The notes: a model not told the origin generated them from the letters alone. Shown: positions 49,156 to 63,963, counted from the first letter of the stretch. The stretch is 64,000 nt of DNA from a virus (IMGVR_UViG_3300032046_000009), one strand, 5' to 3'. Made by a program: numbers and translations.

Positions 49156-49271
49156 TTTGCGATGGGTGTGGCAAAGATGTTCAAGTATTATACAAGAAGC
49201 CAAAGACGACACGATGGCTCTGTGAGAATTGTAAACATATAAAAGAAAAAACTAAGGTGCAGTTCACTTGA
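49152..49271 (+). CDS. VxFT-tail family (36 aa, KTKVQFT), TTG start
   Basis: hand-translated (L)ICDGCGKDVQVLYKKPKTTRWLCENCKH... Confidence 0.45.
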   Translation: MICDGCGKDVQVLYKKPKTTRWLCENCKHIKEKTKVQFT

Positions 49272-49537
49272 AAATCCCTATAATTATGGTTCCCATAGAC
49301 AAAATAATTCCAAGAGGAAATCCCAAAGTTGAGAAGGTATTACTTGAAGATATTCGAGTTAATGGATTAAAAGAGCCTTTGCGAGTAATGTTTCGTGAAG
49401 ATGGAAAAGCCATAATTCTGAATGGTCATCATCGGTACTTTTGTTGTAAAGAATTGAACTATAAAGAAATACCATGTTTTGATGGGAAAATTTATTACCC
49501 ACCTAATTCCTATCTTGATTATCCCAAATCAATTTGA
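49268..49537 (+). CDS. ParB/Srx-like nuclease-domain protein, TTG start translationally coupled to the plus-strand VxFT array
   Basis: ILNGHHRYFC = ParB-like GxHR motif; 89 aa. Confidence 0.5.
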   Translation: MKIPIIMVPIDKIIPRGNPKVEKVLLEDIRVNGLKEPLRVMFREDGKAIILNGHHRYFCCKELNYKEIPCFDGKIYYPPNSYLDYPKSI

Positions 49538-50175
49538 TTGGGGTCTGGACCATCTTCTAAATTCCAATGTGTAGTTTCATATTCGTGAAGCCAATGTTTG
49601 TATTCTTCCTCTCGTTTACGCATCTTCTTTATGTCGGCTATTTTTTGATGGTCAAATACAATATTGATTATTGGAGCATGTACTATATCTAATTCACCAT
49701 CTTTATCAAATATTCTCCTATGGTCTGTTGACCAATGTATTGTTTCTGTCTTTTTAACAAGTCCATATCTTAGAAGTGCCGTATGAGGTTTATAAAATTT
49801 CCAATAAATACGATATACTTTCTCATTTGATATTTCAAGCGTTTTACGAACATTATCGCCCCACATGATTATTATCTCATCTGAGTCGAGAAAAATTGCC
49901 CAATCTCCATCACCACAAAATTTTAATGATTCTGTCCTAGCTTCCCATTGATGCATAGGTCGTAATCTTGTGTAACAAACACGAGATTTTGAATGTTCAG
50001 AAAAATTCAAAATTATTTCCTGTGTTTCATCAGTTGAATGGTCTAAACCACTCGTACCAATCCATCGCCCGTCAAGACAAAATATCTCATCAACTTTGCC
50101 GTCTATAGATTTTAAGGCTTCTAGAACTACATCAGCCGAGTTGTAAACTGGCATTAAGCAAATAAGTTTGTTCAT
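49519..50175 (-). CDS. family-2-like glycosyltransferase (218 aa), paralog of 63122..63691
   Basis: N-terminal ICLMPVYN...LEALKSI block and DxD (FLDSDEII). Confidence 0.5.
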   Translation of the reverse strand: MNKLICLMPVYNSADVVLEALKSIDGKVDEIFCLDGRWIGTSGLDHSTDETQEIILNFSEHSKSRVCYTRLRPMHQWEARTESLKFCGDGDWAIFLDSDEIIIMWGDNVRKTLEISNEKVYRIYWKFYKPHTALLRYGLVKKTETIHWSTDHRRIFDKDGELDIVHAPIINIVFDHQKIADIKKMRKREEEYKHWLHEYETTHWNLEDGPDPNQIDLG

Positions 50176-50450
50176 ATTCTATTTCTACTCACATATCTGT
50201 TCAAGTCTTCTATTCCGAACATATGATTAACCTCTCTTTCCTCAAGTTCAAACCATAATTCATCTTTAGTAAACTTCCATTGTTTCTCTCTTTCAAATAT
50301 GGCTTTATAGATAACGCCTTTCTCTTCCGTATCAGCGATAACTCTAAGACTCTGTAACTGAACTTTAGCAGTTTCTATAGTTACTATTTGAAATTCCCAG
50401 ACTAACCATACTTTCTTTTTAGGTATCATAGAATAACCGTTTCTCTTCAA
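50172..50450 (-). CDS. hypothetical protein (92 aa)
   Basis: track ORF. Confidence 0.45.
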   Translation of the reverse strand: MKRNGYSMIPKKKVWLVWEFQIVTIETAKVQLQSLRVIADTEEKGVIYKAIFEREKQWKFTKDELWFELEEREVNHMFGIEDLNRYVSRNRI

Positions 50451-50814
50451 CGCCTAATTCTTCTAAGGCTTTCTTTACTTCATCAAAGAATCCCATATTT
50501 ATAAGTGCCCGTGGACATGCTTTTCGAACTTTTGCCCAATGATAAGCGAAATCTCTGCCGTCAATATTAAGCATAAATACCATTACGGCACATGCGATAG
50601 TATTTGACCGAGATATTCCGCCGCAACATCTAACTACAACTTTTTGCCCGACAGAAAGAAGGTTAGCTATGATTTGTATTTTGGTTTTTATAGCTTCAAT
50701 ATCGTTGCCAGTTCCATCCTTTATATCTCTAACATCTACGATTATCCATCCTTCGGGAGTCATAGATTCTAAGATGTTACAAGTTGCCAAATGGTCTTTC
50801 CAGATTTCAAACAT
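50419..50814 (-). CDS. dual-specificity (Cys-based) protein phosphatase
   Basis: catalytic loop VVVRCCGGISRSNT (C-x5-R-S/T); 131 aa; promoter box 50855-50890. Confidence 0.65.
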   Translation of the reverse strand: MFEIWKDHLATCNILESMTPEGWIIVDVRDIKDGTGNDIEAIKTKIQIIANLLSVGQKVVVRCCGGISRSNTIACAVMVFMLNIDGRDFAYHWAKVRKACPRALINMGFFDEVKKALEELGVEEKRLFYDT

Positions 50815-50904
50815 TACTGTTTCACCTATCTACACACTAATACGCATTCATTCCTTATAAACTTTGTGGTAGAACGCCCATGCTCAAAATTTCGAACATA
50901 TCAA

Positions 50905-51070
50905 TCGTCCTCATGCAATTTTGGCATTAGATAATACTTCTTTGAAAGACAGTTAATACAATAGTATGCACAGGTATGCAAATTCTCACAATATGCCGCT
51001 TCGATTTCTGTTAATTCTCTTTTACAACTTTTACATTTTTTACCAGACGACTTAACCCATTGTTTCATTG
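50905..51070 (-). CDS. small zinc-ribbon protein (about 55 aa), approximate coordinates
   Basis: hand-translated MKQWVKSSGKKCKSCKREL... Confidence 0.25.
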
Positions 51071-51195
51071 TTTCATTCAATTTTTACTACCACATTTATT
51101 CCAACACACTTCACATATCCATGACATTGAAGTGCCGTTCCAGTAAAGATGAACTTCTTGAACGAGAACATCGTTTCCACAATGGTCACAAGATT
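51065..51195 (-). CDS. small zinc-ribbon protein (about 43 aa), approximate coordinates
   Basis: hand-translated MVAIKSCDHCGNDVLV... Confidence 0.25.
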
Positions 51196-51207
51196 TAATA
51201 GCAACCA

Positions 51208-51468
51208 TTATTTCACCTGATTGTCAATATCTTTTTGTGTATAACCATAATAGACAGGAAACTCTAAACCTTTTCTACAATCTTGGTTAATACACATCCA
51301 TTTGCAATCGACACGCTGACGTTCCTTCTCTTCATTAACCCGAATAAGCAATTCACCACATTTGGGGCATTTAAGAAGTTTAACTTCCTCGGTCATAAAT
51401 CGAGAATCCCCAATTTGACGAATGTTCCTATAATCCAGTACCAAAGAGTTATCGGGGTTGTAAGCCAT
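51208..51468 (-). CDS. zinc-ribbon protein (86 aa)
   Basis: track ORF; CPKC...CINQDC. Confidence 0.5.
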   Translation of the reverse strand: MAYNPDNSLVLDYRNIRQIGDSRFMTEEVKLLKCPKCGELLIRVNEEKERQRVDCKWMCINQDCRKGLEFPVYYGYTQKDIDNQVK

Positions 51469-51556
51469 AGACTAATTTCAAGAGCCATTGGAATATTTTT
51501 TCTATCTAGGAAAAACATTATGTCCACTTGAATTTTCCATCTGGCTTCGTTAAAGT

Positions 51557-52234
51557 TCATGGTTCTTCCTTCTTTTCTTCCTTGAATTCTAAAGATTTCT
51601 GTAGTTCCTTTTTGTATCCCTCTAAGCCCAACTTCTTTATTTTGTCTTCTATGAATGCGGTAACTTCATTCTTTGCTTCGACTACAGTTTCATCCATCTG
51701 TTCTGAGAATTGTCTTTTTATAAAAGGAACATTATTTTCTATCTGCATCTTTAACTGGTCGAGTTGCTTTTGAATTTCTTCCCTATCATGTTTTCCTATG
51801 CTCGGCTTCGCTAGTATCCCAGCAATCTTGGTGTAAAATTGGTTAGTAGTCGATGCGACTTCCTTCATCTTATCTTCGAATTCGGTATCGAACTGCACAC
51901 GTTTACTTTCAAATTGTGCCTCTTTTACTTCATGTCCATCCATGTAACGTATTGTGCATGGGGTTCCTTCACCCTGATTCAAAGATGTTATAGCATCTGC
52001 AAACTGTGACGGCGAAAGATAAACGGATACTATCGGTACGCCGTGGTCCGACATAATCCAATCTTTGTAAAGGTCCCTCATAAGAATAGCTTTGCTAATA
52101 TCTACTCTGATGAATGTTCTCTGCTGGATACTGCTTCCAAACAAATTCATTTTCTCTGAGCAAACGCCCCTAGAGATATTTATTACACCAAAACTTGGGT
52201 GTCTTATTTCTTTTCTTTTCTCTTCATCAGGCAT
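51557..52234 (-). CDS. hypothetical protein (225 aa), C-terminal coiled coil
   Basis: track ORF. Confidence 0.55.
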   Translation of the reverse strand: MPDEEKRKEIRHPSFGVINISRGVCSEKMNLFGSSIQQRTFIRVDISKAILMRDLYKDWIMSDHGVPIVSVYLSPSQFADAITSLNQGEGTPCTIRYMDGHEVKEAQFESKRVQFDTEFEDKMKEVASTTNQFYTKIAGILAKPSIGKHDREEIQKQLDQLKMQIENNVPFIKRQFSEQMDETVVEAKNEVTAFIEDKIKKLGLEGYKKELQKSLEFKEEKKEEP

Positions 52235-52652
52235 ATTTTTTTGGCTTCCTTTTATGTAGTTTCTCTCGTAAATCTTTTAAATCAAATTGTGACGGTTTGG
52301 AAACACAGAGAGAACCAATATCGCTTACTTCTTCTGAAAAACCAAATCGCCGCATTATTCGATAAATTAATGCATGTTCCAACTCGTGGCTAATTACATC
52401 ATCAACGGTTTTCAATTGGAACAAACGTTTCAAATACATTTTGTTCAACCTAATAAGGTTGTAATAAGGTGAATATTCCCCACTAATACGACTATCGAGA
52501 TTAGAAGCCCTCAAAAATACATCGTTAAAATCCACGGCATATTCTTCTCTATATTTCTTGAAGCAACATACGCACAATTCACATTTATCTATCTGTGTAT
52601 CGGGGTTATATTTTTCTTTAAGACTCTTTTTAGCTTTTTTAAGCCAGTTCAT
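52227..52652 (-). CDS. minimal HExxH (HELEH) zincin-like protein (SprT/WLM-like size)
   Basis: ISHELEHALIYRIM; 141 aa. Confidence 0.45.
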   Translation of the reverse strand: MNWLKKAKKSLKEKYNPDTQIDKCELCVCCFKKYREEYAVDFNDVFLRASNLDSRISGEYSPYYNLIRLNKMYLKRLFQLKTVDDVISHELEHALIYRIMRRFGFSEEVSDIGSLCVSKPSQFDLKDLREKLHKRKPKKYA

Positions 52653-52870
52653 TTTCTTCCCTCATTTATGTGCCAAGTTGAACAGTCTATTAGAGTATGC
52701 CCATTTTCACTATATACTTCAACGTCTGCCGCAAAGTGACTGTGCCATCTCTTCTTTTTATCCTGATGCCAACCACGATGACAAACATTACAAGTATAAA
52801 GGTCGGCATCTAGTTGAACGTTATGTCTGGGATTTACTAATTCTCCTTTTCTGCAATGTGGACATATCAT
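52649..52870 (-). CDS. zinc-ribbon protein (73 aa)
   Basis: track ORF; CPHC...CNVCH. Confidence 0.5.
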   Translation of the reverse strand: MICPHCRKGELVNPRHNVQLDADLYTCNVCHRGWHQDKKKRWHSHFAADVEVYSENGHTLIDCSTWHINEGRK

Positions 52871-53012
52871 TTTCTCATTACCTTTACAACTTTAAGATAC
52901 CTATAGACTCTGTTATATTCTCGCCTTGCTTCCAAATATTCTTTAAGACTTTCTGAAATTATTCGTAATTCTTCATCGGTCATTTCTTTCTACTCTCCAT
53001 ATATCACTATCA

Positions 53013-53336
53013 TCATCTTTTTAAATAAGAAATTTTATTATCTTCGAGAAGTTTTTGGAGATAATGTTCGTAATGTAATCCACATTTGGCACATTCTGTA
53101 ACCCAATCATAATCACTTTGCCATTTATGTTCTGGGCAATGTTCTTCACAATAGTATTTGTCTTCGTAAAGATGACAAAGATTCATAACAAGCCGTGCAT
53201 TACAAATAGTACAATTTCGAAAGGATTCTATCTCTTTCTTTTTCTGTTCCCATTCCTCATTAGAAAGATTTAATATTCCTTCAAATGTAGCTTTCATTTT
53301 TTCTTCTCCGTCCATTCTCTGCAACTTCCCCACCAT
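53013..53336 (-). CDS. Cys/His-rich protein (107 aa)
   Basis: track ORF. Confidence 0.5.
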   Translation of the reverse strand: MVGKLQRMDGEEKMKATFEGILNLSNEEWEQKKKEIESFRNCTICNARLVMNLCHLYEDKYYCEEHCPEHKWQSDYDWVTECAKCGLHYEHYLQKLLEDNKISYLKR

Positions 53337-53406
53337 CTATGGGTGCATTCTTCATTTCCACAGGTTGCACAACAATTATACGGTCTAAAGTTAACGGGAT
53401 ACCTTC

Positions 53407-54525
53407 TCATTTCTTTCTTCGCTCCATGTAATCTTCATAGAATGTGAACAAGTTTCCACGACTTGAGTAGAGATGTTTTCGGCATTCTTCTGAAACGGCT
53501 TTAGCAATAAGTGGCATATCATGTTTTGGTGTACCATCTAATCCAAAGTCCGCTTCGACATGGCTTATTGCACCCATGATTTCGCTCTCTGGAATTTGTG
53601 GTAACTTTGGCGGTCCCTCTCGTATCCGTTCGACTATTGGCTTTGGAATATCTAGTTTCACTTTTGCTTGAATATACTCTCCTTCTTTATCGAATGTTTT
53701 CAGTACCATACCTTCATCTTTGCCGTAATCCTTTTCGGTGTTACAGTATTCCAGAACGTGATTAGAAAACTTTATCAAATCCTTTATTGTTCTGTGTCTT
53801 GTTGATGCGTAAAGCTGGACAACTGGAATTTTAGAGTGATAACAATATTGATATACCTGTGTATAAGGAAGGAAATTCTTGAGTGCGGTATCGTAGATGT
53901 CAACAACGAACAGGATAGGCTTTTCATACCTTCTTATCCCTGTGACGCTTGCACCTTTGGCACATTCTTCTACAATTACTCTGAATGTTGGATTAGCTTC
54001 GATTAGTGCTACGATTTTCTCATAATCCTCTACACAATCTTTTCTTACTCTGGCTTGAATATCCTTAGCGGCTATCTCTTGATTATGACTTGATATGACA
54101 AACTCGAACTGTTTCCGCGTATGTGGTTTCTTTCTCTTCCATATGGTAACATTTTCACCATCTTCTTTTATTGTCCATTGAAGTCTAAGTCCGAGCAATG
54201 ACCTTCTAAGTCTGGCATTAGTTGTCAAAATAGGAATATGAGGGTAGTGTTCCCACGGAAGTTCTTTTTGGCGTTTCTTTGTTCCAGTAAAGAATGGAGA
54301 TATACATATGGCTGGTTTATCGAAATCAACCTTAACAGATTCCTTAACCAACTTTCTCAGTTTTGCATTATTACATCTAGTATCAATCAATTCTTTAGCT
54401 TTAGGGTCCCATTCGAATCCTTCTGGAATCTTTCGTGGTTTTCTCATCTTCTTTCCTAATTTCTCCAACCTTTTGAATACTTTGGAAGGTTTCCAGATTT
54501 CGTCTGGATTATCTGCGCCTGTCAT
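53407..54525 (-). CDS. putative covalent nucleotidyltransferase (ATP-dependent RNA/DNA ligase-like)
   Basis: candidate motif I KEDG (TIKEDGENV), motif IV DEGMVLK, motif V AKVKLD in the expected order; 372 aa. Confidence 0.4.
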   Translation of the reverse strand: MTGADNPDEIWKPSKVFKRLEKLGKKMRKPRKIPEGFEWDPKAKELIDTRCNNAKLRKLVKESVKVDFDKPAICISPFFTGTKKRQKELPWEHYPHIPILTTNARLRRSLLGLRLQWTIKEDGENVTIWKRKKPHTRKQFEFVISSHNQEIAAKDIQARVRKDCVEDYEKIVALIEANPTFRVIVEECAKGASVTGIRRYEKPILFVVDIYDTALKNFLPYTQVYQYCYHSKIPVVQLYASTRHRTIKDLIKFSNHVLEYCNTEKDYGKDEGMVLKTFDKEGEYIQAKVKLDIPKPIVERIREGPPKLPQIPESEIMGAISHVEADFGLDGTPKHDMPLIAKAVSEECRKHLYSSRGNLFTFYEDYMERRKK

Positions 54526-55238
54526 TACTTCTCAGCCTTTTGTGCTTTCTCAAGTTTCTTTTTCAGTTCGGCTATGTGAGCGTCTTTCTTCTTTACTTCT
54601 TCTATGATTTTTGCAGTTTCGGGGTCAATCAATGGTATCATTTCTTCTTTTGTGGGTATCATAGTTTCTGGTTTCTTAAATTGTTCGGCTAGTTTTGCTT
54701 GGCGTTCAGCTTCCATTGCGGCACGTTCTTTCTTCTGTAGTTCATATGCTTCCGCTTTTCTAGTTTCCTGATAGTCTGTCTGGGTTTTTCTGAAAATTTC
54801 ATATTTGTAAATATCAGCGTTACTTATCGAATCTGGAACCACCTTTATGTCATCAGGCACACCCATTGCAATTTTTCGTTCACGATTCTTGGTAGCTTGT
54901 TCGCTTCTAATTTGCCAATTACGACATTTCTGGCACATTGATTTCTCTGGAATCATAACATTGTCAACCTCTGTGTTCGGTTCCTTTATTAGTCTTTTTC
55001 CTTTTTCTTCGAGACTTCGAGTTGAACCCTCAATTTTTGTGCCCATACTATTCCATTCGGTTGGAACAGTTTTACGAAATACCTTCTTACATTTAGGGCA
55101 ACCAAAAATATTCCCATCAATAGACTTCGCCAATTCTGTTTTGTCGTCAGGGCAAGTATGTTTCTTGAAGACGTAAACCTTCAACATTGTTACGAAATAA
55201 TCTTGTCCACATGATGAACATTTCTGTTTTTGTTTCAT
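54525..55238 (-). CDS. zinc-ribbon plus Lys/Glu-rich coiled-coil protein (237 aa)
   Basis: track ORF; CSSC...CPKCKK; C-terminal KAE repeats; promoter box 55275-55310. Confidence 0.55.
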   Translation of the reverse strand: MKQKQKCSSCGQDYFVTMLKVYVFKKHTCPDDKTELAKSIDGNIFGCPKCKKVFRKTVPTEWNSMGTKIEGSTRSLEEKGKRLIKEPNTEVDNVMIPEKSMCQKCRNWQIRSEQATKNRERKIAMGVPDDIKVVPDSISNADIYKYEIFRKTQTDYQETRKAEAYELQKKERAAMEAERQAKLAEQFKKPETMIPTKEEMIPLIDPETAKIIEEVKKKDAHIAELKKKLEKAQKAEK

Positions 55239-55487
55239 ATTTCAATCACTATAAAGGTATTACGCACTCGTCCTATTTAAACTTTGCGTCAGAAACTCCA
55301 TGCTCAACTTCTAATCAATGAGAGGGTCAACCATTCATTGACGAGAACCATAATGTCATCTGGGTATTTTGGAAACTCTGGAATATCTAAAAATAGAAAC
55401 AACTCGATAAAGAAGTAAGGCTTTCGGTCTGTCCAATAAATTCTTTGAACCATCGAAGGACGTATTCTAAGTTCTTTTATCAATCGA

Positions 55488-55659
55488 ACTTCACCTTTTC
55501 AGACTCTACACGAACTTTATAACAGTCATCAAATGCATGGGGATTCTCAATATACGAACGAGTTTTCTTCCAACATTTTCTACAGAAACATTCTTTGGTT
55601 CTACAGTCTTTAAACTTGGCATCACATTCGAATTCGATACCGCAATTAAGGCATTTCAA
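55488..55659 (-). CDS. VxFT-tail family (about 55 aa, SEKVKFD)
   Basis: hand-translated (L)KCLNCGIEFECDAKFKDC... Confidence 0.4.
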
Positions 55660-56726: not shown

Positions 56727-56792
56727 AATATTGGTTTTGATAACCTTCTCCGCCGTTTTCCCATGCTTTCAACATGCTTTATAATATAGTTA

Positions 56793-58206: not shown

Positions 58207-58514
58207 TTATCTACGCTGTCGTCATTTCCTAACTCATAAGTGTTTCCTAGATATAGCCAACGTCCGCAAAGCGCACGATGTTCCTTGACATAATGTGCCT
58301 TTTTGCTATTAAGAAACCAAACCCATCCTTCCTTAAGTGGTGCTGGTTGTCTCCAATCGTCACCAACCCGATAACCACATTTACGACATTCCATCTTTGT
58401 ATAAGTTTCTGAAACATATGTAAGTTTGACTTCTATTGAGCCGCACTTCGGACATTTCTCTTGATTGATAGGAAGAACTGGCTTGATTGTTGGTACTTTC
58501 GGTATTTCTGGCAT
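58125..58514 (-). CDS. zinc-ribbon protein (129 aa)
   Basis: CPKCGS...CRKCGY...CAECKRK. Confidence 0.5.
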   Translation of the reverse strand: MPEIPKVPTIKPVLPINQEKCPKCGSIEVKLTYVSETYTKMECRKCGYRVGDDWRQPAPLKEGWVWFLNSKKAHYVKEHRALCGRWLYLGNTYELGNDDSVDNCAECKRKLLKTNWREAKKLAKEGLIQ

Positions 58515-58744
58515 TATTCATTAACCTCTACTGATTTGGCTCCCATAACGATATAGGCTTTGAATGCTTCATTTATTTCCCTAAGAGCTTGTTCCATTAT
58601 CCAAAGATTATAGGATTCGCCTATTTTTCTTTGTGCCCATCTTCTCAAGCTCTCGTAATCCCTTATAGTTATTTTACCCATTTTTAGGTCACTATCCTAT
58701 TATATCAGTCGTCCTATATAAATCTTGCGTAAAAAACACCATGC

Positions 58745-59680
58745 TCAATATTTGAAATCTTTCACATAGGTAGCCCACGGACGGTTTTTTGCCGTTTCAT
58801 TAGACATAGCACCCAAATGAGCGAACTTTATTCTGAAATCAAGATGAACTGAATATCCCAAACTACCAGCTAAAAGACAAAATCCAAAGTCTTCGCTTGC
58901 CCCCTCTTCTTGTTTAGCCAAATCATGGCGTATAGGAACAAAATTCAATCTTTTATCATTAAGAATTTTTCTGCTTAACGCCAAAGCACCAGCACTTGTG
59001 CAAGTCGCTTTGTATATCTTTCCCTCGTCATAATCTTGATATTTAAAGCCGAGAACATTAAGATTAAGTTGTCTGGCTTTTCTTATCTCTTTTGCAATTC
59101 CTCGTTTTATAATCGGAACAGTCCCTTTCGGCATGTCCTTAATAGGAGCATCAATAGACCATACGGTTGCTACCATAGTTTCTTGTGGAAAATCCCTAGT
59201 ATATGACCCGCCACAAATATCGAGATTATTGTCGTAATAAATATTATCCAAAAACCTTTGAATAAAATCTTTATCCTGTGGGATACAGTCATCATCGAGA
59301 AATATCGCTATGTTTGCACCAAATGTTCTTGCCCGTGTTAAAAGCAGTTGACGAACATTAGCTATTGGCTCATAAGGTTGTCCCTTAGCGGCATCTTCTT
59401 TGAACCAAATACGAATAACTTCGTGTGGCAACTGAAACTTTTCAATCAGTTCAAGAGTATTATCTACGCTATTGTTTTCGCAGAAGATGACTTTTTCAGG
59501 CTGTGGGTCTAAGCGATAAAGTGCTCGTTCGAAAACTTTCCAGCAACGTCTTGTAGTATTGTAAATAGGCACAAGAAGAACTACATCTTTAGCTACTTTC
59601 CCTAAAAATGGGGTATCATCTCTAACCCAAAGAAGAGTGAAAGAAACTTTGAAGCCCTCAATTTCTATTAGTGGCAACAT
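58745..59680 (-). CDS. family-2 glycosyltransferase (GT-A fold)
   Basis: CENNSVDNTLELIEKF and LDDDCIPQ (DxD) motifs; 311 aa; promoter box 58715-58750. Confidence 0.6.
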   Translation of the reverse strand: MLPLIEIEGFKVSFTLLWVRDDTPFLGKVAKDVVLLVPIYNTTRRCWKVFERALYRLDPQPEKVIFCENNSVDNTLELIEKFQLPHEVIRIWFKEDAAKGQPYEPIANVRQLLLTRARTFGANIAIFLDDDCIPQDKDFIQRFLDNIYYDNNLDICGGSYTRDFPQETMVATVWSIDAPIKDMPKGTVPIIKRGIAKEIRKARQLNLNVLGFKYQDYDEGKIYKATCTSAGALALSRKILNDKRLNFVPIRHDLAKQEEGASEDFGFCLLAGSLGYSVHLDFRIKFAHLGAMSNETAKNRPWATYVKDFKY

Positions 59681-59966
59681 TGATTATTTTTCTTCCCCAT
59701 TGTATTCTATTCCATCCACGTTCATTGAAATAGGTAATAGCATAACAAAGTCCTTCTATCCCAATTGCTACGCCTAAAGATTCCGCTGGACGTTGGAAGA
59801 TAAGGTCGAGAACTATGAAGTCAAATACTACTTCCAACATCTTTGCGGTTACACCTTTAAGGACTGTACGCAAACGACTTTCGCAGACCTTATGCTCGTG
59901 GTCGCATTTGGACATTAGATTGCCTCTGTTTCTTCTTCGCTTGGAATGGTTTCTTTGCGCCAGCAT
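59658..59966 (-). CDS. hypothetical protein (102 aa)
   Basis: track ORF. Confidence 0.45.
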   Translation of the reverse strand: MLAQRNHSKRRRNRGNLMSKCDHEHKVCESRLRTVLKGVTAKMLEVVFDFIVLDLIFQRPAESLGVAIGIEGLCYAITYFNERGWNRIQWGRKIINVATNRN

Positions 59967-60276
59967 CTCTAACTAATTCTTCTGCCGTCTTTGGTTTAGT
60001 CTTGTATGAGATGACTTCTGCACCAACTTTGAATTTCTGCCACGGATGGTCTTGGCATATGAAATATTTGGTGAGTCCTTCTCGGCATTTAGGCATGAAA
60101 TCTTTGCGGCATTTCAAGCATTTACGCATACCTTTCTTTTTCTCGGTCAAGATGAATGGCTTAGATTGACTTCTTTTACAGTTAGGGCATTCGGATAATC
60201 CCAAGTTAGTTATGAGTTTTCTGGTTCGCAGTAATCTAATACATTTTGGTTCTGGACATCTAGGGTTCAAACTCAT
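59890..60276 (-). CDS. basic zinc-ribbon protein (128 aa)
   Basis: CPNCKRS...CLKCRKD. Confidence 0.5.
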   Translation of the reverse strand: MSLNPRCPEPKCIRLLRTRKLITNLGLSECPNCKRSQSKPFILTEKKKGMRKCLKCRKDFMPKCREGLTKYFICQDHPWQKFKVGAEVISYKTKPKTAEELVRDAGAKKPFQAKKKQRQSNVQMRPRA

Positions 60277-60285
60277 TCACCACCT

Positions 60286-60516
60286 TTATTCTTCGCTCCA
60301 TTGATTGAAATGCGGTATTACCAATTGTATTGGTTTCTGCGATAATTCAATGGCTTTTTTATTATCCACTAGCCAGCTAAGAACTTTTAGATAGATAGTC
60401 TCATATGGGGTTCTCGGCATCTTCTTCTCTTGTAACTTACAAAGCAAATAGTATGCTTCTCGGTCAACAAGATAAGTTTTTTCTCCGATGTAAACCATTG
60501 ACATATAATCTGGCAT
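60286..60516 (-). CDS. hypothetical protein (76 aa)
   Basis: track ORF. Confidence 0.45.
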   Translation of the reverse strand: MPDYMSMVYIGEKTYLVDREAYYLLCKLQEKKMPRTPYETIYLKVLSWLVDNKKAIELSQKPIQLVIPHFNQWSEE

Positions 60517-60524
60517 AAAACCAT

Positions 60525-60824
60525 CTACTTCGTTTGTCTATTGGCGTATGTGAGAATCCCATGTAATTTGCCATTCCCGTTGTTGATTGTGCAGTAGAGA
60601 CATTCCTCAATAACGAATAGCTTTCCGTCAATATGTTGTGTGTACTTCATACGTTTATGTCGTCCACAAGTAAGACACGGTTCTTCAACATTAACTACAA
60701 CGATTCGCCCATCCATTTCCTTGATTTTTCGTTTCTCGTCTTCGCTTATGTTTTCTAAAGGAATCCGCATACAACTTCGGATTTGTTTTATCATTTTTTT
60801 CTTACCTTGAATATATACACGCAT
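60525..60824 (-). CDS. zinc-ribbon protein (99 aa)
   Basis: CLTCGRH...CLYC; promoter box 60820-60860. Confidence 0.5.
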   Translation of the reverse strand: MRVYIQGKKKMIKQIRSCMRIPLENISEDEKRKIKEMDGRIVVVNVEEPCLTCGRHKRMKYTQHIDGKLFVIEECLYCTINNGNGKLHGILTYANRQTK

Positions 60825-61020
60825 TCGTCCTATATAAACCTTGCCCTAGAAAGACCATGCTCAACTTTCGAGTCTCTGTTCTTTTCCAAGATGTCTCAGA
60901 ATAATAAATTGATGATGAAATCCCTCAACTGGTGGAATAAGATTTTCGCCCTTCATTTTCCATTCTATACTATATCTATCGGTTGCATGAATCCAAAGTC
61001 CATCATATTCGAAACTCATA

Positions 61021-61422
61021 TTACCATCTTGGTCTATTTCTCTTTGTTACAGGTTCTAGGCAAGTGCCATTTACTCCATACAAAGAAATGAAGTGAGCTA
61101 TGAAAGTTCCTCTATATCCTTTAATGTTAAAGTCTGCATTCCAATCTTTGCGATACTTTATTAGGATTTTGATAATCTCAACTTCTGTGAATTCATGAAT
61201 ATATGTTCCTAAATCCTGAGAATATCTGGGAGCAATTTCTACTGTTTCTGTTGCAAAACAAACCCCAGTTTCGGAAAGATAAACTGGGCGAACATGGTCA
61301 TTGCATAAATGTCGAGAACGACAATGTTTACATATATCATGTTTCCATTCACTACATTCATGAACACATGTAAATTTGAAACCTAATAGGTCATGCTTTG
61401 TATATACCTTTCGTTCACTCAA
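61021..61422 (-). CDS. Cys/His-rich protein (133 aa)
   Basis: track ORF. Confidence 0.5.
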   Translation of the reverse strand: MSERKVYTKHDLLGFKFTCVHECSEWKHDICKHCRSRHLCNDHVRPVYLSETGVCFATETVEIAPRYSQDLGTYIHEFTEVEIIKILIKYRKDWNADFNIKGYRGTFIAHFISLYGVNGTCLEPVTKRNRPRW

Positions 61423-61735
61423 TCAATATACCCTCGGACCTTAATTCTCTAATTACATCGTCACGAGAAATTGGTAGAAGTATTCTCTTATAATAGAGTG
61501 CCCAATCGAACATAACGTGCATCTTTGCTACTTCAATAAATCTTTCACGTTGTTTTATATCTGGGTAATCCTCTGGGTTGTATTTATCATAAATTGCAAT
61601 TGTATAGTGTGTATCTATCCAATGAGTACGTCCGTTAGTTCCATTATATGTTCCATCTATCCACTTATGAACTTCGGGATAAGATTCTCCAAAAATTTTC
61701 CAATCAATATCTTCATGAATTTTCGGGTTAGGCAT
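61415..61735 (-). CDS. hypothetical protein (106 aa)
   Basis: track ORF. Confidence 0.5.
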   Translation of the reverse strand: MPNPKIHEDIDWKIFGESYPEVHKWIDGTYNGTNGRTHWIDTHYTIAIYDKYNPEDYPDIKQRERFIEVAKMHVMFDWALYYKRILLPISRDDVIRELRSEGILIE

Positions 61736-61813
61736 ATTTTCTCACTAAGGGATAACATAGAGTAAAGGAAGTATTTAAATCTTGCGGAAAAAGAGGGAGA
61801 GTGAAGGTAGTTC

Positions 61814-62686
61814 TTATTCTTGATGAGAACTGCCTTTTGGTGCGGGGAAGGACATTTTTCGTTCTTCCTCTTCCATTTTCGCCTTACGAAGTTCTGCACA
61901 TTTCTTGCTGTCGGTTGTCTTGTCGTAAACAAACTGGAAAAAGTTTTCTTCTAGGAAACGGTAGATACTATCAATCGGTATGAAAAATCCCATCCAAGTG
62001 ATTATGTCCACACCGAAACCAAGTTGCACACTTGCTACTCTAGCGGTATTTCCTATATATTCATAGGTATCTTCCAGAAAAACTGGACCGCCTGAGTTGC
62101 CAAAGATGATGTTGGCAGAAGTCATCCAGTATTCTTTTGCTTCTATTTGGTCGCCTTTGCTTGTCAAACTTCCAAAAGTGAAAAACGGATTATGTGCCAT
62201 CGAACAACCACAGCTTATCATTGATGTGCCGAGTTTTATATCATCTCCTTTTTCTCTTGGAAAGAGTTTTGCAACATGTTCTACTTTATCAGAGCATTTT
62301 ACCTTGAGTAAAGCGACATCAAGTGGTTTATCATAAGCAACTATTTCGGCATCCAAAGTTGTGCCACCTATGCATCGACTCAACTTTTCGTATTTGAAAA
62401 GTTCCACACGCACAAGTTCGTTAGCTTCAACCGTGATGTCTTTCTTGGAAATGCTAGACCACTTTTTGACGAACTTGATTGCTTCTTCAACAACGTGGTG
62501 GCAAGTTACAACATATGATTCATACTCTTTGTCTTCGTCTGGTTTGTCGATAGTCTCTGGTGTTACAGCCGAGTAGATAACTACGCCAGTTCCAGCGGCA
62601 TGTTCCGTCAAAACTCTAACAATAGGATAAAGGATATTCCGATGAATTTCTTTTAGTTTTTCAGCAGATATTCCCATCATAGTCAC
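61814..62686 (-). CDS. trypsin-like (S1/HtrA-type) serine peptidase
   Basis: His motif VTCHHVV and Ser motif GNSGGPVF in the correct order; 290 aa. Confidence 0.6.
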   Translation of the reverse strand: MTMMGISAEKLKEIHRNILYPIVRVLTEHAAGTGVVIYSAVTPETIDKPDEDKEYESYVVTCHHVVEEAIKFVKKWSSISKKDITVEANELVRVELFKYEKLSRCIGGTTLDAEIVAYDKPLDVALLKVKCSDKVEHVAKLFPREKGDDIKLGTSMISCGCSMAHNPFFTFGSLTSKGDQIEAKEYWMTSANIIFGNSGGPVFLEDTYEYIGNTARVASVQLGFGVDIITWMGFFIPIDSIYRFLEENFFQFVYDKTTDSKKCAELRKAKMEEEERKMSFPAPKGSSHQE

Positions 62687-62734
62687 CTATAAAGTAATAG
62701 ACAACCCAAGTATATAAGTGTTATGGTTTATGGT

Positions 62735-63091
62735 TTAACCAAAACTTTGTCCTATATGGTCAATTACACCAGACCAACCACCATCGCCATCTTCATCCTC
62801 TTCTTCTTCTTCCTCATCTGGACCCATTAATTCATTCCAAATATTGTTTTCGCTTTTCTCTCCATCTTCGGGCGGTGGGGGCAAGACATCCTCTTCCATT
62901 CTTTCTAAAATATGAAAAGCGCAAAGATAAATTTGAACCATCTCATACATTCCTCTACGTTCACGTTTCACAAGAACAGGATACAAACTTTCAGTTGATT
63001 TACCACAAACATCACACTTCGGACCAATAGCTTTCTCTTTTGCTTCTTCTTCCTCTGGGCAATAATCGTCTTCTGACATAATCAACACCAA
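62735..63091 (-). CDS. acidic zinc-ribbon protein (118 aa)
   Basis: track ORF. Confidence 0.5.
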   Translation of the reverse strand: MVLIMSEDDYCPEEEEAKEKAIGPKCDVCGKSTESLYPVLVKRERRGMYEMVQIYLCAFHILERMEEDVLPPPPEDGEKSENNIWNELMGPDEEEEEEDEDGDGGWSGVIDHIGQSFG

Positions 63092-63121
63092 GAAAGATAA
63101 AGTAGAAGTAGTATTTAAAGG

Positions 63122-63691
63122 TTATGGATGTGGTCTCTGAGCAGTTTCCGAAGCGTGTTTCTCGCGTTTTCGTTTGTTGAAATCATGACGTACATTAATG
63201 TTAATCATGTAAAGGGCTTGCAATATCTTGCCTTTAGAATCACAAACTCTACAAGTGAAATATTTCATACATTTTTCCTTTCTAAAGAGGCGGCAAACTG
63301 GAAACATATGACTATCCATATACCAAAAGAATCCTTTCTCTATGGTGTTCTCAAGAATAGAACGAACATTATCATCCCATCGTATAACTACTTCGTCAGA
63401 ATCTATAGCAAAAACCCAATCTCCTTCTGCCACATTTTCTATAGAAGCATCTCTGCATTTTTGTTCACTCATTGGGGACGATAACATAATATAGTCTGCT
63501 TTCGTCTTAGAGGTTTTAGAGAAATTTTCTATTATTTGTTTCGTATCGTCAGAAGAATGCAAAGTTGACGGGTTAATCAGCCAACAAGTATCGTAACAAT
63601 GAATCTCATCAACTTTTCCATCCACACTTCTTAGCGTTTCGAGTAGCATATCTCCGCAATTGTAAACTGGTATCACACAAATTATTCGCAT
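63122..63691 (-). CDS. family-2-like glycosyltransferase (189 aa), paralog of 49519..50175
   Basis: ICVIPVYNCGDMLLETLRSVDGKVDEI and AIDSDEVV blocks shared with the paralog. Confidence 0.5.
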   Translation of the reverse strand: MRIICVIPVYNCGDMLLETLRSVDGKVDEIHCYDTCWLINPSTLHSSDDTKQIIENFSKTSKTKADYIMLSSPMSEQKCRDASIENVAEGDWVFAIDSDEVVIRWDDNVRSILENTIEKGFFWYMDSHMFPVCRLFRKEKCMKYFTCRVCDSKGKILQALYMININVRHDFNKRKREKHASETAQRPHP

Positions 63692-63963
63692 TTATATCTA
63701 TCTCTTGGAAATGGGGTTGCATGTGGTCCGTAGTTCCGAACTATGCATTCCACTTCCTTCCAGCCTAACATTTTGCAAGCTCTCAATCTGTGAACACCTT
63801 CTACAACTTCATAGTAATCTTTTACTCGATGAATTTCTATCGGATTTTTCAAACCATTTTTTGAGATGTCTTCAGCTAATTCTTCTACACGCCGTTTAGC
63901 CGCTTTGAATCTACTATAATACAAGTCAAAGTCATCACGAATTTCATCAATTTTGACTAACAT
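63682..63963 (-). CDS. ParB/Srx-like nuclease-domain protein (93 aa)
   Basis: VVEGVHRLRAC (GxHR) motif; directly upstream of the GT2 paralog. Confidence 0.45.
   Translation of the reverse strand: MLVKIDEIRDDFDLYYSRFKAAKRRVEELAEDISKNGLKNPIEIHRVKDYYEVVEGVHRLRACKMLGWKEVECIVRNYGPHATPFPRDRYKCE

What the first reader, a model, noticed from the sequence alone, without database searches (positions are those of the whole stretch)
49268..63963. Duplicated module of a ParB/Srx-like nuclease-domain protein adjacent to a GT2-like glycosyltransferase, one copy translationally coupled to the VxFT array
Two ParB-like small proteins (49268..49537 plus, 63682..63963 minus) are each adjacent to paralogous GT2-like glycosyltransferases (49519..50175, 63122..63691) that share the IC(L/V)(M/I)PVYN...DGKVDEI...DSDE(I/V) blocks. 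A third, larger GT2 lies at 58745..59680. The plus-strand ParB-like gene starts with a TTG that overlaps the last tail-family gene. ParB-like domains paired with sugar-transferases suggest a nucleic-acid or protein modification function.
Basis: partly seen in the sequence, partly recalled or inferred. Interest (0 to 1): 0.65.

Follow-up and report, generated by a model that had tools for sequence, protein, structure and literature searches.

The report
Viral glycosyltransferases with small ParB-like partner

Summary
All five ORFs exist at the stated coordinates, and profile and structure searches support the proposed folds. There are two single-domain ParB/sulfiredoxin-fold proteins (89 and 93 aa), two paralogous minimal GT2 enzymes (38% identity) and a third, only distantly related GT2.

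"Duplicated module" is not supported.
- **Pair B is real.** ParB-B (63682..63963, -) followed by GT2-B (63122..63691, -) is a conserved operon with overlapping genes. It recurs in 7 of the 8 related lineages where the upstream DNA can be read.
- **Pair A is not.** ParB-A (49268..49537, +) lies convergent to GT2-A. It is present only in the closest relative and absent at the same site in all other lineages. It is no closer to ParB-B than to unrelated phage ParBs, and it looks like a recently spread cassette.
- **No tail genes.** The "tail-family/VxFT array" is a run of zinc-ribbon mini-genes joined by a conserved ribosome-binding/start-stop motif.

Pair B sits at the edge of a nucleotide-sugar and multi-glycosyltransferase island that extends beyond the window. 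GT2-B most resembles the peptide glycosyltransferases SunS/ThuS and GmaR, not phage DNA glycosyltransferases. At least four unrelated transferase families around ParB-B share a C-terminal "PHP" tail.

Best reading: a glycan/protein glycosylation system with ParB-B as a non-DNA-binding accessory subunit. The target is unproven.

The parts
63682..63963 (-). ParB-B: 93-aa single-domain ParB/sulfiredoxin-fold protein (motif EGVHRLRA; conserved N-terminal IRDDFDLYY; Pro-rich disordered tail GPHATPFPRDRY)
   Evidence: Pfam ParB_N E 1.3e-9, above the gathering score. PDB profile search: best hit A. thaliana sulfiredoxin 6ky4, E 2.4e-10, then Noc, SbnI and ParB. AF2 pLDDT 87.5. Foldseek: top hit 6ky4, then M. 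xanthus ParB-CTP structures. Family alignment.
63122..63691 (-). GT2-B: 189-aa minimal GT-A glycosyltransferase (DSDE = DxD motif) with an invariant C-terminal ...AQRPHP tail. Its ATG lies 10 nt inside the end of ParB-B.
   Evidence: PF00535 28.5 bits, above the gathering score. AF2 pLDDT 88.6. Foldseek PDB: top hits SunS/ThuS glycocin S-glycosyltransferases, E 5e-9, TMq 0.67-0.69 over the full length. PDB profile search: best hit GmaR. Tail and invariant residues. Junction sequence.
63968..64000 (-). Last 10 codons (plus stop) of the ~390-aa unknown family gene that precedes ParB-B in all lineages. Here it ends QASPRPPKSK, a degenerate form of the QARPHP tail.
   Evidence: Sequence. Full-length copies: L008 8818-9996, L013 8829-9992, L011 6985-8157 and L066 2550-3716, 55-63% identical where compared (L066 not compared).
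62735..63091 (-). Acidic (pI 4.1) CxxC protein downstream of GT2-B, conserved in L008 and L054
61814..62686 (-). Trypsin-like serine protease, conserved downstream of the pair (L008, L013, L054)
   Evidence: Pfam Trypsin_2 E 9e-15. Context.
58745..59680 (-). GT2-C: 311-aa GT2 of polysaccharide-synthesis type, only distantly related to GT2-A/B. Conserved at this position in L008, L010 and L013; a 303-aa gene with no Pfam hit sits at the same place in L011.
   Evidence: PF00535 29 bits. NCBIfam weak hits to HpsE/HfsG/EpsD. hhalign against the A/B profile gives probability 45%. Context.
59658..59966 (-). Small ORF (85-102 aa) overlapping the start of GT2-C
   Evidence: Called as an 85-aa gene overlapping GT2-C in L008, L011 and L013.
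49519..50175 (-). GT2-A: 218-aa paralogue of GT2-B with a different conserved tail (HWNxEDGPDPNQIxL)
   Evidence: PF00535 32.7 bits. 38% identity to GT2-B, E 2e-37. 23 metagenomic relatives. Alignment.
50172..50450 (-). 92-aa unknown protein overlapping the start of GT2-A. An 85-89-aa counterpart is present in L004/5 and L007.
50419..50814 (-). Cys-based dual-specificity-phosphatase-like protein (CCGGISRS). Its synteny with GT2-A is conserved in 5 lineages.
   Evidence: Pfam DSPc E 3.4e-7, below the gathering score. Context.
49268..49537 (+). ParB-A: 89-aa single-domain ParB/Srx-like protein (NGHHRYFCC). It is the last gene of a short + strand operon. Its last 6 codons run antisense through the last 6 codons of GT2-A.
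   Evidence: Pfam ParB_N E 0.0094. PHROG 4715 E 1.7e-9. Weak NCBIfam SerK hit. 94.6% identical copy in L007 only. pS 0.073 versus 0.339 for GT2-A.
48863..49271 (+). Three coupled mini-ORFs (about 48863..48976, 48973..49155, 49152..49271) ending KVQFD, KVEFT and KVQFT. The last two have CxxC zinc-ribbon-like motifs. They form the + strand mini-operon that ParB-A terminates.
   Evidence: Sequence. Junction motifs at 48961, 49140 and 49256. Homologous operon without ParB-A in L006 and L059/60. The start of the first ORF is inferred.

Best explanation
The three GT2 genes belong to a glycosylation system encoded by a ~135-152 kb virus-like element, probably archaeal.

**The island.** Just beyond the right end of the window it also encodes a UDP-GlcNAc 2-epimerase (WecB), a nucleotide-sugar (UDP-ManNAc-type) dehydrogenase, an Asn-synthase-like amidotransferase, a sugar N-acetyltransferase, a PIG-L deacetylase, an SDR and larger multi-domain glycosyltransferases.

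**The enzymes.** GT2-A and GT2-B are old paralogues of a minimal, soluble GT-A enzyme. Its closest solved relatives glycosylate peptides or proteins (SunS/ThuS, GmaR). I infer that they add sugars to a protein-linked or other non-DNA glycan made by the island.

**ParB-B.** It consists of the ParB/sulfiredoxin nucleotide-binding fold only. It has no HTH, no dimerisation domain, no Srx cysteine and no ParB catalytic Glu. It is the fixed, translationally coupled partner of GT2-B. I infer that it is a non-DNA-binding accessory or activator subunit, possibly nucleotide-gated. It may dock GT2-B and the neighbouring transferases through their shared C-terminal ...[R/G]PHP tails.

**ParB-A.** It is not part of a duplicated module. 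It is a separately acquired, recently spread single-domain ParB-fold cassette added behind a junction motif at the end of a convergent mini-operon.

**Shown versus inferred.**
- Shown: the folds, the GT2 paralogy, the conserved gene pairing, the island content, the PHP tail, and the non-conservation of pair A.
- Inferred: the acceptor, the role of ParB-B, and tail docking.
For: **Folds**
- Supported.

**Pair B is conserved**
- ParB_N lies immediately upstream of a PHP-tailed GT2-B (or one gene away) in the window/L008-10, L013/14, L011/12, L066, L054, L056/57 and L053. GT2-B identity falls to about 40-50% across these.
- Overlaps are 4-10 nt in most cases.
- None of about 20 more distant GT2 loci has a ParB neighbour, and none of 38 IMG/VR ParB loci has this GT2.

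**Island content**
- Pfam and NCBIfam assignments. WecB scores 230 bits, above its cutoff.

**PHP tail**
- Found in 17 of 686 distinct ORFs of this element group, all in the ParB/GT block, against 1 of 1938 in control loci.
- Codons vary synonymously, so the selection is on the peptide.
- P187, H188 and P189 are invariant in the 12-sequence GT2-B subfamily.

**Leaning to protein/glycan rather than DNA**
- SunS/ThuS are the only full-length structural matches. GmaR is the best sequence-profile match.
- Distant homologues are fused to FkbM or SAM methyltransferases and to further GT domains, never to ParB or DNA-binding domains.
- The GT2-A/B families are acidic to neutral, pI 5.3-7.05.

**Precedent for a ParB-fold accessory protein**
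- Phage ParB without a DNA-binding domain activates its cognate 5mYOX, and the ParB-dependent enzymes carry a C-terminal extension (PMC13229309).
- Single-domain ParB-fold proteins of about 100 aa are noted in phages and archaea (PMC12704722).

**ParB-A as a cassette**
-.
Against: - There is no direct evidence that ParB-B and GT2-B interact, and no multimer model could be run.
- The acceptor is unknown. Similarity to SunS covers the catalytic GT-A domain only, and the substrate-recognition domain of SunS/GmaR is absent.
- The ~390-aa protein of the source genome has a degenerate tail (QASPRPPKSK) even though ParB-B is present.
- L058 shows PHP-tailed transferases without a visible ParB, but that contig is truncated.
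- ParB-B keeps Srx-like nucleotide-binding residues (GxHR, mostly basic position 18) and a conserved acidic IRDDFD motif. This could mean it is an enzyme rather than an adaptor.
- Only 64 kb plus 10 kb of a ~152 kb genome was seen, so a 5mYOX or hydroxymethylase elsewhere cannot be excluded. Relatives carry a divergent ThyA-like gene.
- Adjacency of ParB-A to one of only three GT2 genes has roughly a 3% chance expectation, so a functional reason for its retention there is not ruled out.
Confidence: 0.5

Rival explanations
1. DNA hypermodification. GT2-B, and perhaps the whole island, glycosylates hydroxymethylated or otherwise modified bases of the element's own DNA. ParB-B plays the part of the ParB-like activator that helps a DNA-modifying enzyme work on double-stranded DNA.
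For: - ParB-like proteins activate phage thymine dioxygenases on dsDNA (PMC13229309).
- ParB-like genes are listed among the neighbours of phage DNA glycosyltransferases (bioRxiv 10.1101/2023.12.21.572611).
- Relatives carry ThyA-like genes that could be hydroxymethylases.
- The pair lies near replication and repair genes: MCM, Endo VII, RNA ligase.
Against: - ParB-B is the nucleotide-binding domain only. The 5mYOX activators need both that domain and the C-terminal dimerisation domain.
- No TET/JBP or thymidylate-synthase family appears among 121 window ORFs, nor among the separately scanned genes of the finding region.
- GT2-A/B lack the R..DDD..EDY/F motifs of phage GT-A DNA glycosyltransferases.
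- The best full-length structural matches are peptide glycosyltransferases. TarS and other GT2 structures match only the N-terminal ~135 residues, and TarP is not among the listed hits.
- The enzymes are acidic.
- The island has five or more GT domains plus uronic-acid and amidation enzymes, which is typical of surface or protein glycans.
Confidence: 0.15
2. ParB-B is itself an enzyme: a sulfiredoxin/SerK-like ATP-dependent phosphotransferase. It would phosphorylate the acceptor (a Ser/Thr or a sugar) or an intermediate, so that GT2-B builds a phosphate-linked or otherwise activated glycan.
For: - The GxHR motif is of the Srx/SerK type rather than the ParB GERR type.
- The best PDB profile hit is sulfiredoxin, with SbnI and SerK also hit.
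- R9, D10, D11, F12 and Y16 are nearly invariant next to the predicted nucleotide site.
- The fold binds ATP, GTP or CTP in different families (PMC12704722).
Against: - It lacks the Srx catalytic Cys (GVHR instead of GCHR).
- It lacks the second domain of SerK/SbnI (93 aa versus about 240 aa).
- The position equivalent to the Srx phosphate-binding Lys is not conserved.
- No phospho-acceptor candidate was identified.
Confidence: 0.17
3. A true duplicated two-gene module. An ancestral ParB-GT2 pair duplicated, and one copy was later inverted.
For: - Two ParB-fold genes each touch one of the two paralogous GT2 genes in this window.
- Chance adjacency of ParB-A to any of the three GT2 genes is only about 3%.
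Against: - ParB-A is missing at the same site in L006, L059/60, L004/5 and L001-3, while GT2-A is kept.
- ParB-A is no closer to the ParB-B family than to unrelated ParBs.
- pS for ParB-A is 0.073, against 0.339 for the adjacent GT2-A.
- ParB-A sits on the opposite strand, in a different operon, behind a junction motif.
Confidence: 0.04
4. No functional link. The ParB-fold genes act on DNA on their own, as partition-like, nuclease or selfish mobile genes, and merely sit beside glycosyltransferases.
For: - ParB-A has the pattern of a free-standing mobile gene: sporadic distribution, insertion at a gene junction, and lower divergence than its flanks.
- ParB_N proteins are very common orphans on mobile elements.
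Against: For ParB-B the pairing holds across 7 lineages, even though the upstream gene content changes. It usually involves overlapping start and stop codons, and it is specific to the PHP-tailed GT2-B subfamily.
Confidence: 0.08

Closest known systems
ParB-dependent phage thymine dioxygenases (5mYOX + ParB activator; PMC13229309)
   Same: A phage ParB-fold protein with no DNA-binding HTH is encoded next to a modifying enzyme and is needed as its partner. The partner enzymes carry a distinctive C-terminal extension.
   Different: In that system the enzyme is an Fe/2OG dioxygenase acting on DNA, and ParB needs both its nucleotide-binding domain and a C-terminal dimerisation domain. Here the enzyme is a GT2, ParB-B is the 93-aa nucleotide-binding fold only, and no 5mYOX was found in the window.
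Sulfiredoxin (Srx)
   Same: Best sequence-profile and structural match. Both are single-domain proteins of about 100 aa with a GxHR motif. From my own knowledge, Srx binds the C-terminal tail of its partner peroxiredoxin.
   Different: The catalytic Cys of GCHR is replaced (GVHR in ParB-B, GHHR in ParB-A). There is no peroxiredoxin context, and the phosphate-binding Lys is not conserved.
SunS/ThuS glycocin S-glycosyltransferases and the GmaR flagellin O-GlcNAc transferase (GT2)
   Same: Closest solved structures and sequences to GT2-B over the whole catalytic GT-A domain (E 5e-9, TMq about 0.68; GmaR E 3.8e-5).
   Different: GT2-A/B are only 189-218 aa and lack the C-terminal helical/TPR substrate-recognition domain. 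There is no glycocin peptide, flagellin or transporter context. Identity is only about 20%.
Phage GT-A DNA glycosyltransferases (JGT/TarP-like; bioRxiv 10.1101/2023.12.21.572611)
   Same: Virus-encoded GT-A fold enzymes, sometimes with ParB-like and sugar-epimerase neighbours.
   Different: The conserved R..DDD..EDY/F motifs are absent. No 5mYOX or ThyS is adjacent. TarS matches only the N-terminal half of the model.
Virus-encoded glycosylation islands (chloroviruses and mimiviruses; mycobacteriophage virion glycosylation) - from my own knowledge
   Same: A viral genome encodes its own nucleotide-sugar synthesis together with several glycosyltransferases.
   Different: Those systems have no reported ParB-fold partner and no shared C-terminal PHP tail. 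The host here is probably archaeal, and the acceptor is unknown.
DpdA/DpdB 7-deazaguanine DNA modification (PMC10164549; the paper surfaced, but the role described here is from my own knowledge, as I did not read it)
   Same: A ParB-like NTPase works together with a transferase.
   Different: DpdB is a larger ATPase acting with a transglycosylase on DNA. There is no homology in the transferase component.

Membership tests
Glycosyltransferase family 2 (GT-A fold) | Match to PF00535 above the gathering score, and a GT-A Rossmann-like fold | tested here: met
   GT2-A scores 32.7 bits, GT2-B 28.5 and GT2-C 29.0, against a cutoff of 23.3. The AF2 model of GT2-B has pLDDT 88.6 and gives GT2 structure matches.
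Glycosyltransferase family 2 (GT-A fold) | DxD metal and nucleotide-sugar binding motif | tested here: met
   D97, D99 and E100 are invariant (LDSDE) across 29 sequences.
SunS/ThuS-type glycocin S-glycosyltransferases | Catalytic GT-A domain plus a C-terminal helical/TPR-like substrate-binding and dimerisation domain | tested here: not met
   GT2-B is 189 aa and matches only the GT-A part of the 420-430-aa SunS/ThuS (TMt 0.32-0.41). There are no extra domains.
SunS/ThuS-type glycocin S-glycosyltransferases | Gene cluster with a glycocin precursor peptide, thiol-disulfide oxidoreductases and an exporter | tested here: not met
   The neighbours are ParB-B, an acidic Zn-ribbon protein, a trypsin-like protease, and sugar-nucleotide enzymes.
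Phage GT-A DNA glycosyltransferases (JGT/TarP-like) | Conserved R...DDD...EDY/F active-site motifs | tested here: not met
   The motifs are described. The invariant residues of the GT2-A/B family are D24, D28, C32, D34, W37, S46, D48, T50, W92, D97, D99 and E100, with no EDY/F.
Phage GT-A DNA glycosyltransferases (JGT/TarP-like) | Neighbouring 5mYOX/TET, or a thymidylate-synthase-type hydroxymethylase, supplying the acceptor base | tested here: inconclusive
   None appears among 121 window ORFs, the other scanned genes of the finding region, or the 10 kb beyond the window. Less than half of the ~152 kb genome was seen, and relatives have a divergent ThyA-like gene.
ParB/Srx superfamily (PF02195 fold) | ParB N-terminal domain fold with a GxxR-type motif | tested here: met
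   ParB-B scores 38.5 bits against a cutoff of 26.3, with Foldseek matches to Srx and ParB. ParB-A is below the Pfam cutoff (16.4 bits) but is supported by PHROGs at E 1.7e-9 and by alignment to ParB-B.
Canonical CTP-dependent ParB clamps (ParB, Noc, KorB) | HTH DNA-binding domain and C-terminal dimerisation domain | tested here: not met
   The proteins are 89 and 93 aa, and the model shows only the N-terminal fold plus a disordered tail.
Canonical CTP-dependent ParB clamps (ParB, Noc, KorB) | GERR box II with catalytic Glu, the box I Gln, and the box III ENxxR Asn | tested here: not met
   ParB-B has GVHR and ParB-A has GHHR. The Gln position is Tyr16. The protein ends before box III (alignment to Noc; residue roles).
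Sulfiredoxin | Catalytic cysteine in the GCHR motif | tested here: not met
   In the alignment to AtSrx, SGCHRYEA aligns with EGVHRLRA. The position is Val or Ile throughout the ParB-B family and His in ParB-A.
Free serine kinases SerK/SbnI | Two-domain protein of about 240 aa scoring above the equivalog cutoff | tested here: not met
   The NCBIfam SerK model gives 21.7-24.7 bits against a cutoff of 380, and only the N-terminal domain is covered.
5mYOX-associated ParB activators | Nucleotide-binding domain plus C-terminal dimerisation domain, both required, with an adjacent cognate 5mYOX | tested here: not met
   There is no C-terminal domain (93 aa) and no 5mYOX in the window or its flank.
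ParB-B / PHP-tailed GT2-B pair (family proposed here) | A single-domain ParB_N gene directly upstream of a ~190-210-aa GT2 that ends in PHP | tested here: met
   Found in the window and in L008-14, L053, L054, L056/57 and L066. The window's pair A does not meet it.

The most novel reading that the evidence does not exclude
The 93-aa ParB/sulfiredoxin-fold protein is a nucleotide-gated hub. It would capture the C-terminal ...[R/G]PHP tails of several unrelated glycosyltransferases (GT2-B, the ~390-aa family, the 600-660-aa GT2/Anp1 proteins and the ~244-aa family) and so assemble or activate a virus-encoded multi-enzyme glycosylation machine. That would be a new job for the ParB-CTPase fold outside DNA biology. 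A bolder variant is that the same hub directs a complex glycan onto the viral DNA of an archaeal virus.
Probability: 0.22. Interest if true: 0.78.

Novelty: new variant of a known kind. Interest (0 to 1): 0.55.

Why it matters
Single-domain ParB-fold proteins of about 100 aa were recently noted as common in phages and archaea but have no known function (PMC12704722). The only partner enzyme tested so far for a phage ParB-like protein is a DNA dioxygenase (PMC13229309).

A strictly conserved, translationally coupled pairing with a minimal SunS/GmaR-like glycosyltransferase gives a concrete, testable second partnership. It sits inside a viral sugar-synthesis island whose transferases share a unique C-terminal PHP tail.

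If the pairing is functional, it would extend the ParB fold from DNA and nucleotide switches to the control of glycosylation. It would also point to elaborate virus-encoded glycosylation in a probably archaeal, ~150 kb virus lineage that is absent from IMG/VR and GenBank phage collections.

If it is not functional, the result is still useful. The apparent "duplicated module" is shown to be one real operon plus one recently inserted cassette.

Tried and rejected
**Alternative genetic code**
- Only 28 ORFs of 110 aa or more occur in the first 50 kb, and recoding a stop codon raises long-ORF coverage.
- However, 125 minus-strand ORFs of 70 aa or more already cover 69% of the window in the standard code. 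The genome is simply made of many small genes.

**Nucleotide and protein similarity to known phages**
- Megablast of 46-64 kb against GenBank phages gave nothing.
- tblastn of GT2-B and of the 575-aa protein against phages gave nothing.

**Scans of public collections**
- IMG/VR scan with GT2-A: no relatives.
- IMG/VR scan with the ParB profile: only distant multi-domain ParBs, none beside this GT2.
- GTDB genome scan with the GT2 profile: nothing.
- GTDB scan with the 18-nt junction motif: five single matches, consistent with chance, with no further motif copies and no homology to the window. No host was identified.
- Metagenome scan with the GT2-B profile: only one further close locus, L066.

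**Rosetta-stone fusions**
- I looked for GT2-ParB fusions among the 150 best of 1366 HMMER hits. The ten mid-length (403-800 aa) multi-domain hits I scanned carried only methyltransferase or extra GT2 domains.

**Complex modelling**
- A multimer model of ParB-B with GT2-B could not be run.

**Pfam on neighbouring families**
- Pfam and NCBIfam found nothing for the ~390-aa and ~222-244-aa families.

**TGA read-through**
- I first wondered whether the VxFT ends reflected TGA read-through. I rejected this because each TTGA or ATGA junction has an SD-like AAGGTG 8 nt upstream and starts a separate CxxC mini-protein.

Full report
**1. What is in the sequence**

The region is almost entirely coded on the minus strand by many short genes. 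All ORFs named in the finding exist.

- **ParB-B (63682..63963, -).** It passes the Pfam ParB_N gathering score (38.5 bits).
- **ParB-A (49268..49537, +).** It is below the Pfam gathering score (E 0.0094) but matches PHROG ParB-like families at 1.7e-9.
- **The three GT2 genes.** GT2-A (49519..50175), GT2-B (63122..63691) and GT2-C (58745..59680) all lie on the minus strand and all pass the PF00535 threshold.
- **GT2 paralogy.** GT2-C is related only at superfamily level.
- **ParB relationship.** The two ParB-like proteins align over just 46 residues at 41% identity.

**2. Fold checks**

- **GT2-B.** An AF2 model built from 29 family members has pLDDT 88.6.
  - Its only full-length matches in the PDB are the glycocin S-glycosyltransferases SunS and ThuS (E 5e-9, TMq 0.67-0.69). 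TarS, SpsA and others match only the N-terminal ~135 residues.
  - A family profile hits GmaR, the Listeria flagellin O-GlcNAc transferase, best (3.8e-5).
- **ParB-B.** A model built from 13 sequences has pLDDT 87.5, with a disordered C-terminal tail.
  - Its best hits are A. thaliana sulfiredoxin, then the CTP-binding domains of ParB, Noc and KorB, and then SerK and SbnI.
  - ParB-B has GVHR, and ParB-A has GHHR, at the position of GCHR in Srx and GERR in ParB.
  - The box I Gln position is Tyr. Box III, the HTH and the dimerisation domain are all missing (residue roles from PMC13229309).
- **Conclusion.** These are sulfiredoxin-sized, single-domain members of the ParB fold. That category has recently been noted in phages and archaea but remains uncharacterised (PMC12704722).

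**3. The "VxFT array" is not a set of tail genes**

- A motif, gaRAAGGTGCAGTTCAC(T/A)TGA, occurs at least 43 times in the window at up to 2 mismatches.
- At up to 1 mismatch there are 15 matches, against 0.01 expected. Almost all are in gene orientation.
- The motif is an SD-like AAGGTG, a fixed 8-nt spacer, and a TTG or ATG start overlapping the TGA stop of the upstream ORF. This forces upstream proteins to end in KVxF(T/D).
- The ORFs it joins are mostly 40-100 aa, many with CxxC zinc-ribbon-like motifs.
- Three motif copies lie on the plus strand at 48961, 49140 and 49256.

**4. Pair A is not a conserved module**

- **GT2-A family.** It has 23 metagenomic relatives.
- **Conserved synteny.** What is conserved is a DSP-like phosphatase, sometimes an 85-92-aa ORF, and then GT2-A. 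This holds in the window, L007, L006, L004/5 and L059/60.
- **The convergent mini-operon without ParB-A.** It is present in L006 and in L059/60 but ends without ParB-A. The last VxF(T/D) mini-ORF abuts the stop of GT2-A directly.
- **Distribution of ParB-A.** Only L007 (GT2-A 87% identical) carries ParB-A, at 94.6% identity.
- **Divergence.** Between the window and L007, synonymous divergence is 0.073 for ParB-A and 0.339 for the adjacent GT2-A. This indicates recent spread of ParB-A by recombination.
- **Affinity.** ParB-A scores 22-32 bits against ParB-B family members and 29 bits against an unrelated IMG/VR ParB.
- **Overlap.** Its last six codons simply run antisense through the conserved tail codons of GT2-A.
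- **Conclusion.** ParB-A is a lineage-specific cassette added behind a junction motif. It is not half of a duplicated module.

**5. Pair B is a real, conserved operon**

- **Source genome.** A protein identical to ParB-B occurs on contigs of up to 151.8 kb.
- **Recurrence.** A single-domain ParB_N gene lies directly upstream of a GT2-B orthologue in:
  - the source genome (L008-L010);
  - L013/14 (ParB-B 79% identical);
  - L011/12 (63%);
  - L066 (GT2-B 68% identical);
  - L054 (GT2-B 51% identical);
  - the still more divergent L053.
- **L056/57.** ParB is followed by two tandem GT2-B-like genes.
- **Gene overlap.** Overlaps are 4-10 nt in most cases.
- **Exception.** Only the truncated L058 shows no ParB.
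- **Independence from upstream context.** The pairing holds although the upstream genes differ between lineages.
- **Specificity.** About 20 more distant GT2 loci have no ParB neighbour, and 38 IMG/VR ParB loci have no such GT2.

**6. Context beyond the window**

Upstream of ParB-B the source genome encodes the following:

- a LonB-type protease;
- a PIG-L deacetylase;
- a FabG-like SDR;
- a NeuD/PglB-type sugar acetyltransferase;
- a 646-aa two-domain GT2/Anp1 protein;
- an Asn-synthase-like amidotransferase;
- WecB (230 bits, above its cutoff);
- a UDP-ManNAc-type dehydrogenase;
- a ~390-aa protein of unknown family, whose last codons are window 63968..64000.

Other lineages swap in an ATP-grasp enzyme, a GDSL/SGNH-GT fusion, or a 658-aa fusion of the Anp1-like and ~390-aa modules. 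This is a nucleotide-sugar (ManNAc/uronic-acid type) and multi-glycosyltransferase island.

**7. An unexpected shared tail**

- **Where it occurs.** GT2-B orthologues all end in ...A(Q)(R/G)PHP, and P187, H188 and P189 are invariant in 12 sequences. The same terminal PHP ends:
  - the ~390-aa family;
  - the 646-, 607- and 658-aa transferases;
  - one member (L058) of a ~222-244-aa family.
  ParB-B tails are also Pro-rich and sometimes contain PHP.
- **Statistics.** 17 of 686 distinct ORFs in this element group carry the tail, all within the ParB/GT block, against 1 of 1938 in control loci.
- **Level of selection.** Codon usage at the tail varies synonymously and the downstream DNA is not conserved, so the selection is on the peptide.
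- **GT2-A.** It has a different conserved tail (GPDPNQIxL).

**8. Interpretation**

*Shown*
- The folds and the GT2 paralogy.
- The conserved pairing of ParB-B with GT2-B.
- The island content and the PHP tail.
- That pair A is not conserved.

*Inferred*
- The island makes a complex glycan, and GT2-A and GT2-B add sugars to a protein-linked or other non-DNA acceptor. The reasons are:
  - the closest solved relatives are peptide or protein glycosyltransferases;
  - distant homologues are fused to FkbM or SAM methyltransferases and to extra GT domains, never to DNA-binding modules;
  - the enzymes are acidic;
  - the motifs of phage DNA GT-A enzymes are absent.
- ParB-B is most simply an accessory or activator subunit.
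  - The experimental precedent is the phage ParB that activates its cognate thymine dioxygenase, where the ParB-dependent enzymes carry a C-terminal extension.
  - From my own knowledge, peroxiredoxin's C-terminal tail wraps around sulfiredoxin.
  - The PHP tails are therefore an obvious candidate docking element. This is a hypothesis, not a result.

*Rivals*
- DNA glycosylation with ParB-B as a DNA-side activator (about 0.15).
- ParB-B as an Srx/SerK-like phosphotransferase (about 0.17).
- No functional link (about 0.08).

**9. Nature of the element**

- **Phage-like families.** Several window proteins match phage protein families, including PHROG 6452 at 2.7e-40, HNH endonucleases, and a weak terminase hit.
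- **Archaeal signals.**
  - The MCM helicase of two related lineages hits only archaeal viruses in the GenBank virus set.
  - The Lon protease is of LonB type.
  - The ThyA-like gene of a relative is closest to the methanogen-type model.
- **Database searches.** The lineage gave no hits to the queries tried against IMG/VR, GenBank phages or GTDB genomes.
- **Conclusion.** An archaeal host is likely but unproven.

**10. Verdict**

- The real feature is one conserved ParB-fold/GT2 operon within a viral glycosylation island with a distinctive PHP-tail signature.
- The literature searches run here found no description of such a pairing.
- I rate it a new variant of a known kind, namely a ParB-fold accessory protein partnered with a modifying enzyme, of moderate interest.

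Noticed in passing
window-wide; e.g. 48961-48976(+), 49140-49155(+), 49256-49271(+), 37685-37700(-), 55480-55495(-): A junction motif, gaRAAGGTGCAGTTCAC(T/A)TGA, occurs at least 43 times at up to 2 mismatches. At up to 1 mismatch there are 15 matches against 0.01 expected. It is an SD-like box, a fixed 8-nt spacer, and a start codon overlapping the upstream TGA stop, which forces KVxF(T/D) C-termini. It is equally dense in relatives L001, L004, L006 and L059 (0.7-1.45 per kb) but rare in the glycosyltransferase island. The fixed spacer is unexplained. The motif may also serve as a recombination joint for gene cassettes, since ParB-A sits exactly behind one.
   Followed up: partly
window 63122-63133 (the GT2-B tail codons); L008 5763-5777; L011 8143-8157, 9977-9991, 10861-10875; L013 8805-8819, 9978-9992; L058 1593-1607: A C-terminal ...[Q/K][R/G]PHP-COOH tail is shared by at least four unrelated glycosyltransferase-like families, all clustered around ParB-B. 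It occurs in 17 of 686 ORFs against 1 of 1938 in controls. Synonymous codon variation shows selection on the peptide. No known function.
   Followed up: partly
L008/L009 1-10000 (the sequence immediately right of window position 64000): A nucleotide-sugar and glycan island: LonB protease, PIG-L deacetylase, FabG-like SDR, NeuD/PglB-type acetyltransferase, a 646-aa GT2/Anp1 double transferase, an Asn-synthase-like amidotransferase, WecB (above its equivalog cutoff), a UDP-ManNAc-type dehydrogenase and a ~390-aa unknown family.
   Followed up: partly
window 49268-49537 versus L007 8091-8360: Synonymous divergence of ParB-A is 0.073, while the adjacent GT2-A has 0.339 between the same two genomes. 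This is the signature of a recently exchanged cassette. The distribution is sporadic, like that of a free-standing mobile gene.
   Followed up: yes
window 50419-50814 and 50172-50450 (-): A Cys-based dual-specificity-phosphatase-like gene, sometimes followed by an 85-92-aa ORF, is conserved directly upstream of GT2-A in five lineages. Each of the three GT2 genes in the window has a small upstream ORF overlapping its start.
   Followed up: partly
L011 3852-5852; L013 1556-3553: An MCM helicase (NCBIfam MCM domain, 522 bits) whose only matches in the GenBank phage/virus set are archaeal viruses (Halorubrum, Altiarchaeum, Thermococcus, Methanocaldococcus, Haloferax). Together with LonB, a methanogen-type ThyA-like gene and DUF7417/DUF7569 hits, this suggests an archaeal host.
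   Followed up: partly
window 53407-54525 (-), 51557-52234 (-), 29203-30099 (-), 32812-33756 (-), 15780-16667 (-): Other recognisable genes are an RNA ligase (PF09414), a widely distributed phage protein (PHROG 6452, E 2.7e-40), an SPFH/Band-7 protein, a KaiC/RecA-like ATPase and a MoxR/CbbQ-like AAA_5 ATPase. No capsid, portal or tail family was detected among 121 ORFs.
   Followed up: partly
L053 2194-2334 (+): A second ParB-like coding stretch lies downstream of the ParB, GT2-B and 242-aa genes on this short contig, so some relatives may flank the transferases with two ParB-fold genes.
   Followed up: no
window 62735-63091 (-): A strongly acidic (pI 4.1) CxxC protein with a poly-Glu/Asp tail follows GT2-B and is conserved in L054. 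A trypsin-like protease (61814-62686) lies downstream and is also conserved.
   Followed up: no
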